Source of the DNA: Candidatus Cloacimonadales bacterium
GTDB lineage: Bacteria > Cloacimonadota > Cloacimonadia > Cloacimonadales > JAIOQZ01
Direction: 5' to 3'
Length of the DNA: 64,000 nt
Assembly (NCBI GenBank): GCA_963662655.2
Contig: CAXXTU010000002.1
Span: 2,656,001-2,720,000 of the forward strand
Part shown: positions 18,001 to 33,000 of the stretch, piece by piece
Layout: each line of letters opens with the position of its first letter
How positions within the stretch are numbered: position 1 is the stretch's first letter
Position numbers: made by a program

Positions 18001-21000
18001 GCCGAAGGAGAGAATCCGGGCTGGCAGGCGATCATCATTCGCACGAAGACTCGGTTCGATCGCGCAATGTTCCGGAGATTCCCGGATATCAAGCTCCTGA
18101 TTCGAGCCGGAACCGGCTTTGACAACATCGAACTCTGCGCAGCGGGAAACGTTGTCGTATGCAATGCCCCCGAGGCAAACGCGAATGCTGCCGCCGAGCA
18201 CACGCTCTCCTTCATGCTTTCCCTGATCAAACACCTTCCGCAGGCCAGGCAAAACGTTATCGAAGGCAAATGGCGCACGGGCCTGCCCTTCAACCCGGAG
18301 ATTCCGGAACTCAAGGTCTTACTCGTCGGTGTAGGCAGAGTGGGCGGACGGGTCGCGAAAAGCCTCCGGGCGCTCGGCGCTGAAGTCAGAGGTGTCGATC
18401 CATACCTGACGCCATCGGATCGCACTGAAAGGGGTATCGAATTCACAGACTACTACTCCGGCTTGCAGTGGTGCAATGTGCTCAGCTTCCATTGTCCGCT
18501 AACAGAAGAAACACGCCACTATTTCTCGGAGACGCAGCTCGATTCTCTCGAACTCCCAATCTGGCTGATCAACACATCTCGCGGAGCGGTCGTGGATATC
18601 AAGGCTGTTGAGGATGGTCTTGATTCGGGCAAGATTCTTGGAGCAGCCCTGGACGTGTTCGAGCAGGAGCCCTGGATTCCAAACGCTCTGGCAAGCAATC
18701 CTCGCGTGATCCTCTCCCCTCATTCGGGGGCGAGAACGAAAGCAGCGCGCGAACGACTTTCTCTGGAAACGCTCAACGTATGGGAACAGTACGCCTTCAA
18801 AGGCAAAATCATGAACTCTGTTTCAATGAAGTTTTAATGCAAGCGACCCATTCATAAACAAGGCGTAATCATATTATTATAAAAAAATAAAATAAGCTTG
18901 ACACATTCGCTCGCATATACGCTCTAATTGCTTCATGAATGACATCAGGCAGCTAGAGTCACGATTGAAAACTACCGACACAGAAGAGAAACTCGACCTA
19001 TTGAATCGTCTATGCAGGGGTTATTGGACAAGAGACGCAAGCAAAGCCATAGAATATGGCAAGTTAGGTCTGGCTCTCGCTTTGCAGCTGAACAAGACTG
19101 ATCTCGCCTGCGATTTCCAAAATGATATCGGCATCGCCTACTGGTACATCGAAGACTACGAATCCGCCCTCGATAACTGCTACAACGCTCTCATAACACG
19201 CCAAAAATTCGGCAGACCAGATAAAATCGCCTCCTCGCTCAACAATACCGGGCTCATCTACTACAAGCTCAGGGACTATCGTAAAGCGATCGATATGTAC
19301 AAGGAAGCGCTGAAGCACGCCGACCCGGAAAAGGACTTCAATCTCGTTTCTACGCTCTACAATAATCTGGGACTCATCTACATCGAGTTAGCGGGGATTT
19401 CCGGAGGAACGTCCGAAAAACTGGACGACGACGACGTTTTCGAAGGGTTTCATCCCTCCTGGCTCGATAACCCGGAGAACCTATCCCTGTTCAATCCGAA
19501 CAAAACAGACGAATATCTTCAGGAAGCCTTCAAGTATTACAATAAAATCCTCGATCACATCGATGAGCGGGAAGACATGCAGCACATGCGAACCCATGTG
19601 CTCGGCAATATAGGCTTGTACTATCTTCGTATTGGCGATACAAAGCAAGCGCTCGAATACCATTGGAAAGCCCTTGAGCTTGTCGGGGAAGAAAACGAAA
19701 GCCACTTCCTCCCGGGGTTCTATTATAACATCGCGCGAATCTATTGGGGAAAAGGAGATACCCACCTCGCAATGGAATACTGCGACAATGCGATCACTCA
19801 CGCCAAGAAAAACGATCTGCACCGGCTTCTTTGCAAGACTTTCAAGCTGAAATCGGATATTTTCCGTAAAACCGGCGATACCGAGAAAGCCCTGCAAATG
19901 ATCGACCAATACATCGCGGCGCACCAGGAATATAGCAAAATCAACCGGCAGCGGGAAATCACAAACCTGAGAATGAAATACGATATTCTGGAGAAGGAGC
20001 AGGAACAGGAAAAAATCCGCCGGAAAAACGAGGAGCTGGAGCAGCAGGTACAACAAAGAACGGAGCAGCTTATCGAGATGGAACGGTTCTACGAAGTAGG
20101 TAAATTCTCGGCGAGTATTGTCCATAACCTGAGCGGTCCGCTGACAAATCTCATGGGTGTTGTTTCCATGATCGAGATCAAATACAATATGCTCTTCAGA
20201 CGCGATGCTACCATGAACCGCTATATCAAGATGCTCAACGATTGCGCCGACAACCTCAAATCGATGATTCAATCCATCACCACGCATGTGCGGACTTCGG
20301 AATTCATGGACGATCAGGAACTCGACCTGAATGCAATCCTGACCGACGAAATCCAATTCAAGAATATCGAGACCGTTTCGACAGAAAAAATCGACATCCA
20401 GACCTGGCTGGACGACGATCTACCGAGAATCCTCGGACAGGAAGTTCACTTCAGGCAGATTTTTTCGAACCTCATCACCAACGCCTGTGACGCGATGAAA
20501 ACCACGGAGAAGAAACTCCTCCATATCAGCAGCCGGAAGATCGACGATCAAAATATCCGACTGATTTTCGAGGATACGGGCACGGGAATCAGTCCCGAAC
20601 ACCTGGAAAAAATCTTCAAGCACGATTTCACGACCAAGGAACCCGGAAAAGGTACCGGCCTGGGCCTGGCAATCACGCGGCAGATGGTGGAATCCTACCG
20701 TGGAACGATCACTGTGAGCACGGAATTGGGCAAAGGCACTGTATTTCAAATAGATATTCCACTGGGATCAGGCTTAACCATTGAATAGAGCTTTGTTAAA
20801 TCCCCTTAATTATGGCCTCTTTTCATGATGTGGATGTTCTCCGAAACACGCTTATAACACCACTTTCTTCTCGTTCCCACAATTTCATCCCACCTCGTAA
20901 AACAGCTTTTTTATTGATATTGGTTGACACGTAAAAAGCGAACCCCAAACTGTGCAATTAAATTACCCGGAATGGAGGATATAAATGGCAAAGAAAGTAA

Positions 21001-30000: not shown

Positions 30001-33000
30001 AGTCGTTGCGCATGCGACAACTGAGGCGAAGCCGTCCGTGATCGAAGGGAAGGTATGGTTGATCATGAAGGACAACATCGACACCGACATGATCTACCAC
30101 AATCGCTATCTGACCATCACCGACATCGCGCAGATGGGACAGTACACCTTCGATAACCTGGAAGGTTGGGAAGACTTCGCAAAGAAAGCCGAATGCGGCG
30201 ACATCGTGATCACCGCGAAGAATTTTGGGGCGGGAAGCTCCCGTCAGCAAGCCGTGGATTGCTTCAAATCGTTGGGCGTGCAGGCCGTTTTGGCGAATTC
30301 GTTCGGAGCGATCTACGAACGCAACGCCATCAATGCCGCATTCCCGGTTCTGACATACGATTCGATCGAAGAACTCGGACTGAAAGACCGCGATCGGATC
30401 AAGGTCGATTTCGCGACGGGCGTCATGACCAACCTCGAAAACAGCAAGTCGATCCAGATCACGCCGTTCTACGATGTTCAGATGGAAATCTATCAGCGGG
30501 GCGGGCTTCTATAGCCCTCACAAGGAGTCAATATGGCAACATTCATCGAGAAAATACTCGGCGCGAAGAAAGGCGCAATCGTCTTTAAAAAGCCGGATAT
30601 CGTGCTTTCCCACGATAACACGGCCAGTATCGAGAAAACCTTCCGCAAGATGGGCGGCGAACACGTCGCGGATCCCGATCAACTCCTGATCGTGCTCGAC
30701 CACAACGCGCCACCAACCAACAGCAAGCTCGCCAACGACTACCAGCGCATCCGCGACTTCGTGGGCGAAGAGGGTATCGGACGCTTCCATGACGTCGGCG
30801 ACGGCATCTGTCACCAGATCATGAGCTACTATGCACGCCCGGGCAACATCGTCGTGGGTAGCGATAGTCACACCTCTACGGCTGGCGCTTTCAACGCGCT
30901 CGCGGCCGGTATCGACCGCACCGAGACCGCCGGTATCTGGAAACAGGGCGAGACCTGGTTCCGCGTGCCCGAATCGATCAAGATCACGCTGCACAATCAG
31001 CTTCCCGAGAACGTCACCGCCAAGGATCTGGCGCTGTGGATCATCGGCATGTACGGCTCCAGCGGCGCAGACTACATGTCCATCGAGTACCACGGCGACG
31101 GCGTGAAAACGCTCTCCATCTCCGAGCGCATGACCCTTTCCAACCTCGCCTCCGAGATGGGTGCCAAGAACGCCGTGTTCCCGGCGGACGAAGTGCTCGA
31201 AGCGTTCCTCGGCGAGAAAGTCGAAGGTGTCTGGGCGGACGATCAGGCCGATTATTTCCGCGAGGTGGAAATCGACCTGGCGAAGGTCTTCCCGGTTCTG
31301 GCATGCCCACACCACGTGGACAACGTGAAGGGTATCGCGGAAGTGGCGGGTACACCGATCCAACAAGCGCTGGTCGGAACCTGCACCAACGGACGCCTCG
31401 ACGATCTCCAAACCGCGGCAGCCGTGCTCAAGGGCAAAAAGATTCCGGCAAGCGTTCAACTGCTGGTCATTCCTGCGTCCAAGGCGATCTACCTGGCAGC
31501 GATGAAAGACGGAACCATCGAGACGCTCATCGACGCAGGCGCTAACATCCTCTCACCCTCGTGCGGTCCCTGCCTGGGCACCGGCCAGGGTATTCCCGCT
31601 GACGGCATCAACGTGATCTCCACCGCGAACCGCAACTTCCTCGGCCGCATGGGCAACAAAGCCGCCAGTATCTACCTTGGCTCGCCCGTGACCGTGGCAG
31701 TCTCCGCGCTGAACGGCAAGATCACCGATCCGCGTGCTGTCTCAGGCGACGAACAGTACGCCTACAAGCAGCAGCAGAGCGCCACCACCGTTGTTTCCGA
31801 TGACGACAACCGCCGCATCGACAGCGCCTGGAACTACACCGATGTCGATAACCTCAACACCGACCAGATGTTCGCCGGAAACCTCACCTACAACATCAAC
31901 AGCTCCGAGCCGGACAAGGTCGCGCAGCACCTCTTCAAGGGCTTCGACGACAACTTCGCCGAGCGTGTGCAGCAGGGCGACATCATCCTTGCGGGTGAGA
32001 ACTTCGGTTGCGGCTCGTCGCGCGAGCATCCGTCCGTCGGACTCGCCTACGCGGGTGTAAAGGCGGTCATCGTGAAATCAGTGGCGCGTATCTTCTTCCG
32101 CTCGGCGATCAATCAGGGTCTGCCGATCATCGTGCTGCCCGAGGCTGTGGATGCATACAAGCCCGGCGACAAAGTCGATATCGACTTCGAGAAAGGATCC
32201 ATAACCATCGCAGATAAAGAGTTCGGCTTCGCGCCGCTGCCCGATAAATTGATGTCCATCATCAACATGAAGGGCCTCGTGAACTGGATCAAGAATAATT
32301 AGTTGGTTGTTCTCTGATAGATTATCCCTCCGGTGATATCACTGGAGGGATTTTTTATTCCTTCGTCGCTATTCGTTCGAGATTTACAAGTTGGTTAAAA
32401 AAGTAATCCCAATTATAATGTCTATTTCCCGTCATTCGTAAGCTTCTATGTTTATCGACAATAGACTCAAGATCGTCTCGAGTGCCTATTCCCAACATTA
32501 TCTTTATTTTATCAAAGTATTTCTTTGATGTCGCACGTTCAAAAAGCTCAAGAACCTCAACTCTTCCCTTAAGAGCATACAGTGAATGCGGATCCCAGAT
32601 ATTTGAAGTAATATTTGTAAGCAAATCCACAACACATCGGCAATATAGAATGAAATCCGCAATAATGAAGGAGTTGAAATCGACAGGTAAAGCTCTGCAC
32701 CTTTTTTGTAGAAATTGTGTATATGGAGGGAATTTATTATTCTCTTTTATTTTTTCATTGTAATCCATAGGAGGCAGAATCCTGCAATAGAATGTGAAGG
32801 TTTTCAATGCTGAGTTCCGGTATTGAACCGGTGCCTGAATATAGAACTGCTCAGACAACATCGCCCCGACTGTTGCATATTCGTGGTATCGTATCATTAC
32901 AGCTATCGTGTATACAAACATCTCATAAGCTATGATGTCGAAGTTTGTTGCCACATGACTTCCTGGATATAAATGGCTATTTCCATTGGACATGTATCGG

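What a model noticed while it worked through the whole genome (the two positions that open the first line are those of the whole stretch)
20985..32302. Saccharopine pathway operon joined to a citrate-lyase-like complex and homoaconitase/homoisocitrate-dehydrogenase homolo [...]
One operon holds saccharopine dehydrogenase (g02220), lysine-2-oxoglutarate reductase (g02221), a citrate-lyase-like pair with the acyl carrier fused to the beta subunit (g02222 ACP-CitE, g02223 CitF), a homoisocitrate-dehydrogenase-like enzyme (g02224) and two fused large+small 'aconitases' of the homoaconitase/isopropylmalate-isomerase type (g02226, g02227). Boldest reading: the alpha-aminoadipate pathway run backwards as an anaerobic lysine fermentation: lysine -> saccharopine -> aminoadipate -> 2-oxoadipate -> homoisocitrate -> homoaconitate -> homocitrate, which a 'homocitrate lyase' splits into acetate and 2-oxoglutarate. 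New would be a lysine degradation route without glutaryl-CoA or [...]
Evidence so far: Gene order and Pfam/Swiss-Prot rows of g02220-g02227: g02224 40% to M. jannaschii homoisocitrate DH AksF and 37% to T. thermophilus isocitrate/homoisocitrate DH; g02227 46% to methanogen homoaconitase HacA; g02222/g02223 40-42% to CitE/CitF. These are the only Aconitase, Iso_dh and CitF genes of the genome, and there is no HMGL-type homocitrate/isopropylmalate synthase and no citrate synthase row, so they serve neither leucine synthesis nor a TCA branch. neighbours.tsv: LKR (AlaDh_PNT_N) beside citrate-lyase ACP in 39 genomes of 199,903, all 39 in Cloacimonadales; LKR within 2 genes of CitF in 31, 27 of them in the order. 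In 72 loci around LKR homologues from GTDB genomes the LKR-SDH pair is [...]
(Added by a program. Inside this text positions count along the whole contig: contig position 2,656,001 is position 1 of the stretch shown here. "Call 12" and the like, gene names such as g00115 and contig names such as C1 are that model's own, and its searches are not shown. The text may have been shortened before it was handed on; [...] marks where a part breaks off. The agent that wrote the report below was given it as the finding of a first reader that could run no searches.)

Follow-up and report, generated by a model that had tools for sequence, protein, structure and literature searches.

The report
Reverse aminoadipate route for lysine breakdown
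An uncultured anaerobic bacterium keeps the first enzymes of lysine breakdown in one operon with enzymes that look built to run the lysine-making aminoadipate pathway backwards and split the product in two; if so, it is an undescribed oxygen-free way to digest lysine, but no enzyme has been tested.

Summary
Best reading (about 0.7): anaerobic lysine breakdown via saccharopine and 2-oxoadipate, carboxylation to homoisocitrate, two hydratases, then cleavage of homocitryl-CoA to acetyl-CoA and 2-oxoglutarate.
In 151 phylum genomes, lyase, LKR and dehydrogenase coincide in 43 of the 50 that carry any. Lysine 2,3-aminomutase is in 2 of those 50 and 92 of the other 101. Aminoadipate-semialdehyde dehydrogenase occurs only in carriers and sits inside the operon in three non-Cloacimonadota loci. 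The same dehydrogenase subfamily lies in a LysX/homocitrate-synthase operon, which points to homoisocitrate as substrate.
Correction: this is not an ACP-type citrate lyase. CitC, CitX and CitG were not found, and the carrier serine position is mostly Arg/Lys, so it probably uses free CoA. PrpD replaces aconitase 1, and unrelated CoA-ligase/lyase pairs replace CitEF elsewhere.
Direction and substrates are inferred; nothing is assayed. Library searches found no description. This scan reported the same idea earlier on other genomes.

The parts
20985..22307 (+). Saccharopine dehydrogenase, glutamate-forming (440 aa)
   Evidence: Pfam Sacchrp_dh_C 8e-78 and Sacchrp_dh_NADP; PDB 2axq 3.5e-89, 1e5l 1.2e-88, human AASS SDH domain 9e-79
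22444..23739 (+). Lysine-2-oxoglutarate reductase of the AASS type (431 aa)
   Evidence: Full-length match to human AASS reductase domain, E 1e-76; only E 1e-14 over 130 residues to the fungal lysine-forming enzyme
23750..24964 (+). CitD-like domain fused to a CitE-family acyl-CoA lyase (404 aa); proposed homocitryl-CoA lyase; carrier serine position holds Arg
   Evidence: TIGR01588 280 bits (cut-off 443), TIGR01608 54 bits (cut-off 63.5); best PDB match CLYBL 5vxc; motif counts
24957..26510 (+). CitF-family transferase (517 aa); proposed homocitrate CoA-transferase
   Evidence: TIGR01584 500.4 bits (cut-off 501.45); PDB 2hj0 9e-123; beside ACP-CitE in 76 of 80 loci
26747..27937 (+). Beta-decarboxylating dehydrogenase (396 aa); proposed NADP(H)-linked homoisocitrate dehydrogenase
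   Evidence: Below every equivalog cut-off, best AksF 275 of 500; catalytic residues kept, S96-P97-I98 at E. coli Icd S113-L114-N115, K315/Y316/Y365/K369 at Icd K344/Y345/Y391/R395; 51% identical to the dehydrogenase of a LysX/homocitrate-synthase operon
28018..28587 (+).
   Evidence: Pfam HD 5e-12; in 18 of 80 loci; model pLDDT 90, nearest fold YhaM HD domain Z 16.6, rmsd 3.4, 169 aligned; the His of the HD pair is A, C or I in 32 of 37 sequences
28718..30514 (+). Aconitase 1, fused large+small (598 aa), rebuilt active site; proposed homoaconitate/homocitrate hydratase
   Evidence: TIGR01343 399 bits; own clade; three cluster Cys kept, but R33, C63 and T99 stand where LeuC and aconitase 2 have His, in 22 of 22 sequences; replaced by PrpD
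30533..32302 (+). Aconitase 2, fused large+small (589 aa), canonical active site; proposed homoisocitrate/homoaconitate hydratase
   Evidence: TIGR01343 466 bits; groups with the aconitase of the LysX/homocitrate-synthase operon L231, 45% identical, SH-aLRT 88
32324..32351 (+). Intrinsic terminator-like hairpin closing the operon
   Evidence: 12 pairs, 7 G-C, followed by a T-run
26613..26651 (.). Intergenic REP-like palindromic repeat; not specific to the operon
   Evidence: 38 copies genome-wide at up to 2 mismatches
28611..28689 (.). Inverted pair of the same REP-like repeat between the HD gene and aconitase 1
   Evidence: I1, I2

Best explanation
The operon is most of an anaerobic lysine-catabolic route that runs the upper alpha-aminoadipate pathway backwards. 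(1) LKR and SDH turn lysine into aminoadipate semialdehyde plus glutamate (family shown; activity inferred). (2) An ALDH7 encoded elsewhere (contig C2:1193148-1194689), or an aldehyde:ferredoxin oxidoreductase in relatives without it, gives aminoadipate (ALDH7 family shown; AOR role inferred). (3) An unidentified aminotransferase gives 2-oxoadipate (inferred). (4) The dehydrogenase carboxylates 2-oxoadipate with CO2 and NADPH to homoisocitrate (substrate and coenzyme inferred from motifs and gene context; direction inferred). (5) Aconitase 2 dehydrates it to cis-homoaconitate, and aconitase 1 (PrpD in other lineages) rehydrates it to homocitrate, probably the (S) form (inferred). (6) CitF moves CoA from an acyl-CoA, probably acetyl-CoA, onto homocitrate, and the CitE domain cleaves homocitryl-CoA to acetyl-CoA and 2-oxoglutarate, using free CoA with the CitD-like domain as a scaffold (loss of carrier machinery shown; use of free CoA inferred). 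Net, by my bookkeeping: lysine + 2-oxoglutarate + CO2 + H2O gives 2 glutamate + acetate. 2-Oxoglutarate can go on to succinyl-CoA through enzymes present in the genome, avoiding glutaryl-CoA.
For: Co-occurrence: of 151 phylum genomes, lyase 46, LKR 48, dehydrogenase orthologue 46; all three in 43 of the 50 with any. Outside the phylum, 47 of 50 lyase genomes hold the dehydrogenase orthologue, 34 of 37 where it is not in the lyase locus, and 41 of 50 hold LKR. Three of five LKR-less Chloroflexota tested have lysine 6-aminotransferase over cut-off, against 0 of 14 controls. Lysine link: KamA over cut-off in 2 of 50 carriers against 92 of 101 others; within family f4, 1 of 29 against 3 of 3. ALDH7 orthologue in 22 of 151, all carriers; the own copy passes the P6C-dehydrogenase cut-off (788 against 730); it lies in the operon in L097, L102 and L080. 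Substrate: Icd Asn115 is Ile in 48 of 48 orthologues; the same subfamily and an aconitase-2-type enzyme sit with LysX and homocitrate synthase, both over cut-off, in L231. Direction: LKR is the AASS type. The genome lacks the Leu, Ile/Val, His, Trp, Arg, Thr and Met synthesis genes tested. LysA is over cut-off in 14 of 50 non-Cloacimonadota lyase genomes, including both with the full operon plus ALDH7 and LKR. In L227, L229 and L263 an acyl-CoA ligase pair plus citryl-CoA lyase-family gene stands in place of CitEF, and in L297 a family III CoA-transferase plus HMG-CoA-lyase-family gene; all are activation-plus-cleavage sets. Carrier: CitG in 1 of 80 lyase genomes, and there in a separate citE-citF-citG-citC cluster; no CitC or CitX hit in the own genome. 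PrpD is in 6 of 9 genomes lacking aconitase 1, always beside module genes, against 3 of 71 with it. The only acyl-CoA dehydrogenase scores below the glutaryl-CoA dehydrogenase cut-off (309 against 470).
Against: No enzyme is assayed and there are no expression data. The NADP motif does not show direction: the dehydrogenase in the biosynthetic operon L231 has it too. The own genome has no LysA and none of 30 Cloacimonadota carriers has LysA over cut-off, so they have no known way to make lysine. ALDH7 is in only 3 of 32 f4 genomes; the AOR that may replace it is generic (99 of 151) and, from general knowledge, reversible. The aminotransferase is not identified. The KamA pattern largely follows family lines, so the genomes are not independent; three carriers (G071, G138, G142) have 465-470-bit KamA-like hits with one stop, below cut-off. 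The base rate of LKR in Bacteroidota was not measured. A LysA-like decarboxylase below cut-off follows the aconitase on the same strand in G166, G167 and G185, and true lysC-lysA lie a few kb from aconitase 1 in G200. An OadA-like subunit (668 bits, cut-off 756) exists in the own genome, so a citrate route is not blocked. MAFFT did not align the serine column directly in the fused proteins; the register rests on anchoring at the Asp and on three ungapped stand-alone carriers, and an invariant Ser lies one residue on. Carboxylation of a 2-oxoacid is uphill (recalled) and needs high CO2/NADPH and pull from the lyase.
Confidence: 0.7

Rival explanations
1. Lysine biosynthesis by a fungal-like route: CitE/CitF condense acetyl-CoA with 2-oxoglutarate, hydratases and dehydrogenase give 2-oxoadipate, a reversible AOR reduces aminoadipate, and SDH/LKR finish through saccharopine.
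For: No LysA in the own genome or over cut-off in 30 Cloacimonadota carriers. The dehydrogenase and aconitase-2 subfamilies do serve a LysX/homocitrate-synthase operon elsewhere. AOR is present in the own genome and in most f4 carriers. LysA-like genes lie beside the aconitases in some Bacteroidales.
Against: The genome lacks the other amino-acid synthesis genes tested. ALDH7 is linked to the operon and found only in carriers. LKR is AASS-type. LysA coexists with the module in 14 of 50 other genomes. Exclusion with the catabolic KamA fits replacement of one degradation route by another. A transferase-plus-lyase pair has no thioester-hydrolysis pull (general knowledge).
Confidence: 0.1
2. The lower six genes handle citrate/isocitrate: glutamate from the saccharopine steps goes to 2-oxoglutarate, is carboxylated to isocitrate and cleaved to oxaloacetate and acetate, or the module supplies 2-oxoglutarate. 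The lysine genes are linked only through glutamate.
For: CitF is at the citF cut-off. The dehydrogenase keeps the Ser113 equivalent and the NADP motif of Icd and scores about as well to NAD-IDHs as to HICDHs. An OadA-like subunit and two glutamate-dehydrogenase-family genes exist.
Against: Asn115 is replaced in 48 of 48. Both hydratases are HacA/LeuC-type, far below AcnA/AcnB cut-offs. Two distinct hydratases, or one plus PrpD, are kept where citrate needs one. No CitC, CitG, CitX or CitT was found. This route leaves the six-carbon product of LKR/SDH/ALDH7 without an exit.
Confidence: 0.1
3. A general 2-oxoacid chain-shortening module (for example 2-oxobutyrate via citramalate, or 2-oxoisocaproate via isopropylmalate), in which 2-oxoadipate is at most one substrate.
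For: CitE-family lyases include citramalyl-CoA lyases, and CLYBL is the best PDB match. Aconitase 1 has an unusual active site. Nine of 50 outside genomes lack LKR. The HD protein is unexplained.
Against: Tight genome-level link with LKR, ALDH7 and LAT, and exclusion with KamA. The substrate loop differs from E. coli LeuB. The subfamily is used with homocitrate synthase in L231.
Confidence: 0.1

Closest known systems
Saccharopine pathway of lysine catabolism (AASS LKR and SDH domains plus ALDH7A1; also Ruegeria pomeroyi, PMC4334477, passages seen)
   Same: LKR and SDH match the two AASS domains over their full length; an ALDH7/P6C dehydrogenase is in the genome.
   Different: The known route oxidises 2-oxoadipate to glutaryl-CoA (recalled). 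Here no SucA/SucB hit and no glutaryl-CoA dehydrogenase over cut-off was found, and 2-oxoadipate appears to be carboxylated instead.
Upper alpha-aminoadipate pathway of fungi and Thermus (homocitrate synthase, homoaconitase, homoisocitrate dehydrogenase)
   Same: Homoaconitase-family hydratases and a dehydrogenase whose subfamily also occurs with LysX and homocitrate synthase (L231).
   Different: No homocitrate synthase in this genome; a CoA-transferase/lyase pair in its place; NADP-type motif where Thermus HICDH has Asp-Ile; a second, rebuilt hydratase; proposed opposite direction.
Citrate (pro-3S)-lyase CitDEF with CitC, CitG and CitX
   Same: CitF and CitE homologues adjacent, with a CitD-like domain.
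   Different: Carrier fused to CitE; serine position mostly Arg/Lys; CitG in 1 of 80 genomes; no CitC, CitX or CitT found; always paired with hydratases and a dehydrogenase.
2-Methylcitrate cycle (PrpD or AcnD plus AcnB) and reductive TCA branch (IDH, aconitase, CcsAB/Ccl)
   Same: Two hydratases, or PrpD plus an aconitase; reductive carboxylation followed by CoA activation and cleavage; Ccl-family lyase and ligase in variant loci.
   Different: No PrpB or PrpC in the genome; the proposed substrates are one carbon longer; not a cycle for autotrophy.
Classical lysine fermentation through lysine 2,3-aminomutase (KamA)
   Same: Same proposed job, anaerobic use of lysine, in the same phylum.
   Different: No shared enzyme among those compared; the two are nearly mutually exclusive in the 151 genomes sampled.

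Membership tests
ACP-dependent citrate lyase (CitCDEFGX) | Alpha (CitF) and beta (CitE) subunits | tested here: met
   Homologues present; CitF 500.4 against cut-off 501.45, CitE 280 against 443
ACP-dependent citrate lyase (CitCDEFGX) | Carrier serine for the prosthetic group (Ser14 of CitD; number recalled) | tested here: not met
   Two residues before the conserved Asp: R/K 118, H 1, S 1 of 120; ungapped stand-alone carriers also R/K. Caveat: an invariant Ser lies one residue on.
ACP-dependent citrate lyase (CitCDEFGX) | CitG and CitX to make and attach the group, CitC to acetylate it | tested here: not met
   None found in a 98.95%-complete genome (CitX tested with the E. coli protein only); CitG in 1 of 80 lyase genomes
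ACP-dependent citrate lyase (CitCDEFGX) | Cleaves citrate | not testable with these tools
   Needs an assay
Isocitrate dehydrogenase (E. coli type) | Ser113 and Asn115 in the substrate loop | tested here: not met
   Ser kept, Asn replaced by Ile in 48 of 48; role of these residues recalled
NADP-specific beta-decarboxylating dehydrogenases | Lys344/Tyr345 in the coenzyme loop | tested here: met
   K in 47 of 48, Y in 48 of 48; meaning from a PMC3521221 passage
Homoisocitrate dehydrogenase | Score over a curated HICDH model | tested here: not met
   AksF 275 of 500, AksF2 275 of 540; these models are for methanogen or archaeal enzymes
Homoisocitrate dehydrogenase | Subfamily used with homocitrate synthase and homoaconitase | tested here: met
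   L231: LysX 357 of 276, homocitrate synthase 474 of 414, dehydrogenase 51% identical with the same loop motif; one locus of 80
Homoisocitrate dehydrogenase | Turns over homoisocitrate | not testable with these tools
   Needs an assay
Homoaconitate hydratase family (HacA/LeuC) | Family score, three cluster Cys, canonical His residues | tested here: inconclusive
   Both over the TIGR01343 cut-off with Cys kept; His set canonical in aconitase 2, altered at three places in aconitase 1
Saccharopine pathway of lysine catabolism | LKR, SDH and aminoadipate-semialdehyde dehydrogenase | tested here: met
Saccharopine pathway of lysine catabolism | Exit through 2-oxoadipate dehydrogenase and glutaryl-CoA dehydrogenase | tested here: not met
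   No SucA/SucB hit; sole acyl-CoA dehydrogenase 309 of 470 for the glutaryl-CoA model. A ferredoxin-linked 2-oxoacid oxidoreductase could still make glutaryl-CoA.
Biosynthetic alpha-aminoadipate pathway | Homocitrate synthase | tested here: not met
   No LeuA-like hit; the only PF00682 match is a carboxyltransferase
Biosynthetic alpha-aminoadipate pathway | Aminoadipate activation (Lys2 or LysW/LysX) | not tested
   No search for LysX, LysW or Lys2 was run in the own genome
HD-domain phosphohydrolases | His-Asp metal pair | tested here: inconclusive
   Present in this protein, but His is replaced in 32 of 37 sequences

The most novel reading that the evidence does not exclude
A widespread, undescribed CO2-consuming route of anaerobic lysine breakdown: 2-oxoacid chain elongation run backwards. 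It passes through (S)-homocitrate, the mirror image of the biosynthetic intermediate, made by an aconitase with a rebuilt active site or by PrpD, and cleaved by a citrate-lyase descendant that dropped its prosthetic group and works on free CoA. At least three unrelated activation/cleavage sets have been recruited for the last step.
Probability: 0.45. Interest if true: 0.9.

Novelty: new variant of a known kind. Interest (0 to 1): 0.8.

Why it matters
It would be a route of anaerobic lysine breakdown that uses neither the radical-SAM aminomutase nor glutaryl-CoA, in sediment and digester lineages of several phyla (Cloacimonadota, Bacteroidales, Anaerolineales, Marinimicrobia and one Thermodesulfobacteriota genome in my loci). 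It predicts three new activities that can be assayed with purchasable or easily made substrates: a carrier-independent homocitrate lyase, an NADP-linked homoisocitrate dehydrogenase used reductively, and an aconitase with altered catalytic histidines. These genes are annotated as citrate lyase, aconitase and isocitrate or isopropylmalate dehydrogenase, so they could be misread as TCA, reverse-TCA or leucine genes in uncultured anaerobes. The parts belong to known families; the route is what is new.

Tried and rejected
Rfam: 0 matches in the window; no lysine riboswitch at gathering threshold. Promoter scan at chance level, 15 found against 14.8 expected. RNA runs: no RNA holder listed; no evidence either way, so no reads were laid. 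The aldehyde dehydrogenase beside the lyase in L043 is a P5C dehydrogenase, not ALDH7, and was not counted. AOR as a pathway-specific marker: rejected, it is in 99 of 151 genomes. NADP motif as proof of reductive direction: rejected, because L231 has it. Showing the fungal HICDH substrate loop from PDB: the printed alignments ended before it, so no claim is made from it. HD protein function: PDB sequence search, atlas and fold search gave only generic HD/YhaM likeness. No complex prediction was run. The aconitase trees are quick trees; the careful search did not finish. Paper searches with no relevant result: (0), 14 'homocitrate lyase' (0), 40 (1 listed, an ALDH review, listing only), 41 (0), 91 (7 listed), 108 'homocitryl-CoA' (0), 109 (0), 116 (0). 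The library lacks most subscription papers. PMC5534430 passages did not give the CitD serine number. No supplements were read. The outside-phylum test used 50 of 67 non-Cloacimonadota lyase genomes (13 with module genes in the locus plus the first 37 without); searches used those 50 plus 30 of the 46 phylum carriers.

Full report
Observation. The region holds eight intact genes on the + strand, closely spaced, each with a ribosome site, closed by a strong hairpin. The genome is 98.95% complete. CitF, the dehydrogenase and the aconitases have no other homologue in it. The order recurs in relatives and, rearranged, in Bacteroidales, Anaerolineales, Marinimicrobia and a Thermodesulfobacteriota genome.

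The genes act as one unit. In 151 genomes drawn from the phylum, the lyase (E below 1e-60) is in 46, LKR in 48 and the dehydrogenase orthologue (E below 1e-80) in 46. All three are in 43 of the 50 that carry any, also in families where they are scattered. In 80 GTDB loci around the lyase, CitF is in 76, the dehydrogenase in 21, aconitases in 22, the HD gene in 18, LKR in 12 and SDH in 8; many loci end at contig borders. In 50 of the 67 non-Cloacimonadota genomes behind these loci, the dehydrogenase orthologue is in 47, including 34 of 37 where it is not near the lyase. An aconitase-1-type gene is in 71 of 80 lyase genomes tested.

The link to lysine. LKR matches the human AASS reductase domain over its whole length and the fungal lysine-forming enzyme only weakly. 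An ALDH7 outside the window passes the piperideine-6-carboxylate dehydrogenase cut-off. Its orthologue is in 22 of 151 genomes, all of them carriers, and it lies in the operon in two Bacteroidales loci (followed by an LKR homologue) and one Anaerolineales locus. Lysine 2,3-aminomutase, the entry to classical lysine fermentation, was not found in this genome. It passes cut-off in 2 of 50 carriers and 92 of 101 others; within family f4, in 1 of 29 carriers and 3 of 3 non-carriers. Kin are not independent, and three more carriers have sub-cut-off hits with one stop. LKR is in 41 of 50 outside genomes. Of five LKR-less Chloroflexota tested, three have lysine 6-aminotransferase and a fourth has the linked ALDH7. 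Only 3 of 32 f4 genomes have ALDH7; these three are among the seven without a hit to the AOR subunit, which suggests that AOR does the step elsewhere, though AOR is generic.

Substrate of the lower module. The dehydrogenase keeps all catalytic residues, has Ser-Pro-Ile where E. coli Icd has Ser113-Leu114-Asn115 in 48 of 48 orthologues, and has the Lys-Tyr coenzyme loop that marks NADP use (PMC3521221, passages seen). The strongest pointer is locus L231. There a member of the same subfamily (51% identical, same loops) and an aconitase grouping with aconitase 2 lie with LysX and homocitrate synthase, both over cut-off. This is one locus of 80. It supports homoisocitrate and homoaconitate as substrates, and it also shows that the NADP motif says nothing about direction.

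The lyase is not an ACP-type citrate lyase. CitG, CitC, CitX and CitT were not found in the genome. CitG is in 1 of 80 lyase genomes, and there it lies in a separate citE-citF-citG-citC cluster. Counting from the conserved Asp, the position of the CitD carrier serine (Ser14, recalled) holds Arg or Lys in 118 of 120 homologues. The fused proteins have an insertion here, but three stand-alone carriers align without a gap and also have Arg or Lys. An invariant Ser lies one residue on, so a shifted site is not excluded; without CitG the group could not be made by the known route. I infer a CoA-transferase plus acyl-CoA lyase working on free CoA. Around the short form of the dehydrogenase (80 metagenome loci), other sets take this place: a succinyl-CoA-ligase-like pair plus a citryl-CoA lyase-family gene (L227, L229, L263), CitF plus that lyase (L277, L287), and a family III CoA-transferase plus an HMG-CoA-lyase-family gene (L297). 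Spending ATP to activate the substrate fits cleavage, not synthesis (inference).

Two hydratases. Aconitase 1 forms its own clade (quick trees). It keeps the three cluster cysteines but has Arg, Cys/Thr and Thr/Ser where LeuC and aconitase 2 have His, in 22 of 22 sequences. PrpD passes cut-off in 6 of the 9 genomes without aconitase 1, each time beside module genes, and in 3 of 71 with it. From recalled enzymology, CitE- and Ccl-type lyases act on (S)-acyl-CoAs, whereas biosynthetic homocitrate is (R), and PrpD joins a cis-aconitate to a product of that same si-face geometry. This predicts (S)-homocitrate and would explain the second hydratase. It is inference only; fungi are also recalled to use two enzymes for the (R) form.

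Direction. The genome has no hit for the Leu, Ile/Val, His, Trp, Arg, Thr and Met synthesis genes tested, nor for citrate synthase; it has DapA, DapD, aspartate kinase, SucCD, AckA and Pta. It has two KOR-like complexes, one beside a sodium-pumping methylmalonyl-CoA decarboxylase-like cluster, two glutamate-dehydrogenase-family genes, and one acyl-CoA dehydrogenase below the glutaryl-CoA cut-off. LysA passes cut-off in 14 of 50 outside lyase genomes, including both with the full operon, and in 0 of 30 Cloacimonadota. This fits an amino-acid fermenter that takes lysine up and degrades it. Against: carriers in this phylum have no known lysine synthesis; AOR can be reversible; LysA-like genes follow the aconitases in three Bacteroidales and lysC-lysA lie near in a fourth; an OadA-like subunit keeps a citrate route open; the aminotransferase is unidentified.

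HD protein. It sits next to the dehydrogenase or aconitase 1 in most loci. The model is confident and nearest to the YhaM HD domain (Z 16.6). The His of the HD pair is lost in 32 of 37 sequences while four other His and two Asp are invariant. Its role is unknown; an isomerase or lactonase is a guess.

Novelty. Ten library searches found no description of homocitrate cleavage, homocitryl-CoA or carboxylation of 2-oxoadipate; subscription papers are mostly not covered. I saw passages of PMC3521221, PMC5534430 and PMC4334477, and only listings and abstract starts of the others. Earlier notes of this scan propose the same route on other genomes. I had written my reading before that look-up and count the notes as leads only; their ligase/lyase variant led, where I found it independently.

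Verdict. A real, conserved operon. Reverse aminoadipate catabolism of lysine about 0.7; synthesis, citrate and general chain shortening about 0.1 each. Interest 0.8.

Noticed in passing
window 26555-26651 and 28595-28689: REP-like palindromic repeat in two intergenic gaps, with short 21-nt tandem units before the first; 38 copies of the 25-nt core genome-wide.
   Followed up: partly
window 35377-36612 (-): A 411-aa ORF that reads like an ISL3-type transposase (recalled likeness, not scanned); a near-identical start occurs at contig C2:2239499-2240281.
   Followed up: no
window 32355-33803 (-): A 482-aa ORF converging on the operon terminator, with an N-terminus that reads like a TIR/SEFIR domain (recalled likeness, not scanned).
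   Followed up: no
window 18935-20788 (+): TPR-repeat histidine kinase directly upstream of the operon; not among the recurring neighbours in the 80 loci.
   Followed up: partly
L112 (G000:C2:1187031-1194689): ALDH7 lies downstream of a rearranged AOR complex: AFOR_N fused to a 2Fe-2S thioredoxin domain, a NuoF-like subunit, Fer2 fused to AFOR_C, and a ThiF gene; possibly an electron-bifurcating aldehyde oxidoreductase.
   Followed up: partly
L113, L126 (and same layout in L115, L118): In family f13, LKR-SDH directly follows an ornithine aminotransferase gene over cut-off.
   Followed up: partly
L186:12917-14053, L187:2781-3929, L188:13717-14865: A roughly 380-aa LysA-like PLP decarboxylase, 177-194 bits against a cut-off of 298, follows the aconitase on the same strand in three Bacteroidales; unexplained.
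   Followed up: partly
L231: A LysX/homocitrate-synthase lysine operon whose dehydrogenase has the NADP-type Lys-Tyr loop; an NADP-linked biosynthetic HICDH would be unusual (recalled).
   Followed up: partly
L245, L267, L290, L292: The dehydrogenase subfamily also lies among archaeal-type genes (MptA-like GTP cyclohydrolase, replication factor C), suggesting the module reaches archaea.
   Followed up: no
L223 (G000:C2:3540311-3541561): A distant SDH paralogue (E 1.6e-22) with no NCBIfam hit at 1e-8; could be a lysine 6-dehydrogenase-like enzyme.
   Followed up: no
G071, G138, G142: KamA-like hits of 465-470 bits with one internal TAA, below cut-off, in three module carriers.
   Followed up: no
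L044, L056, L100: Two tandem CitF copies behind ACP-CitE in three Bacteroidota loci.
   Followed up: no
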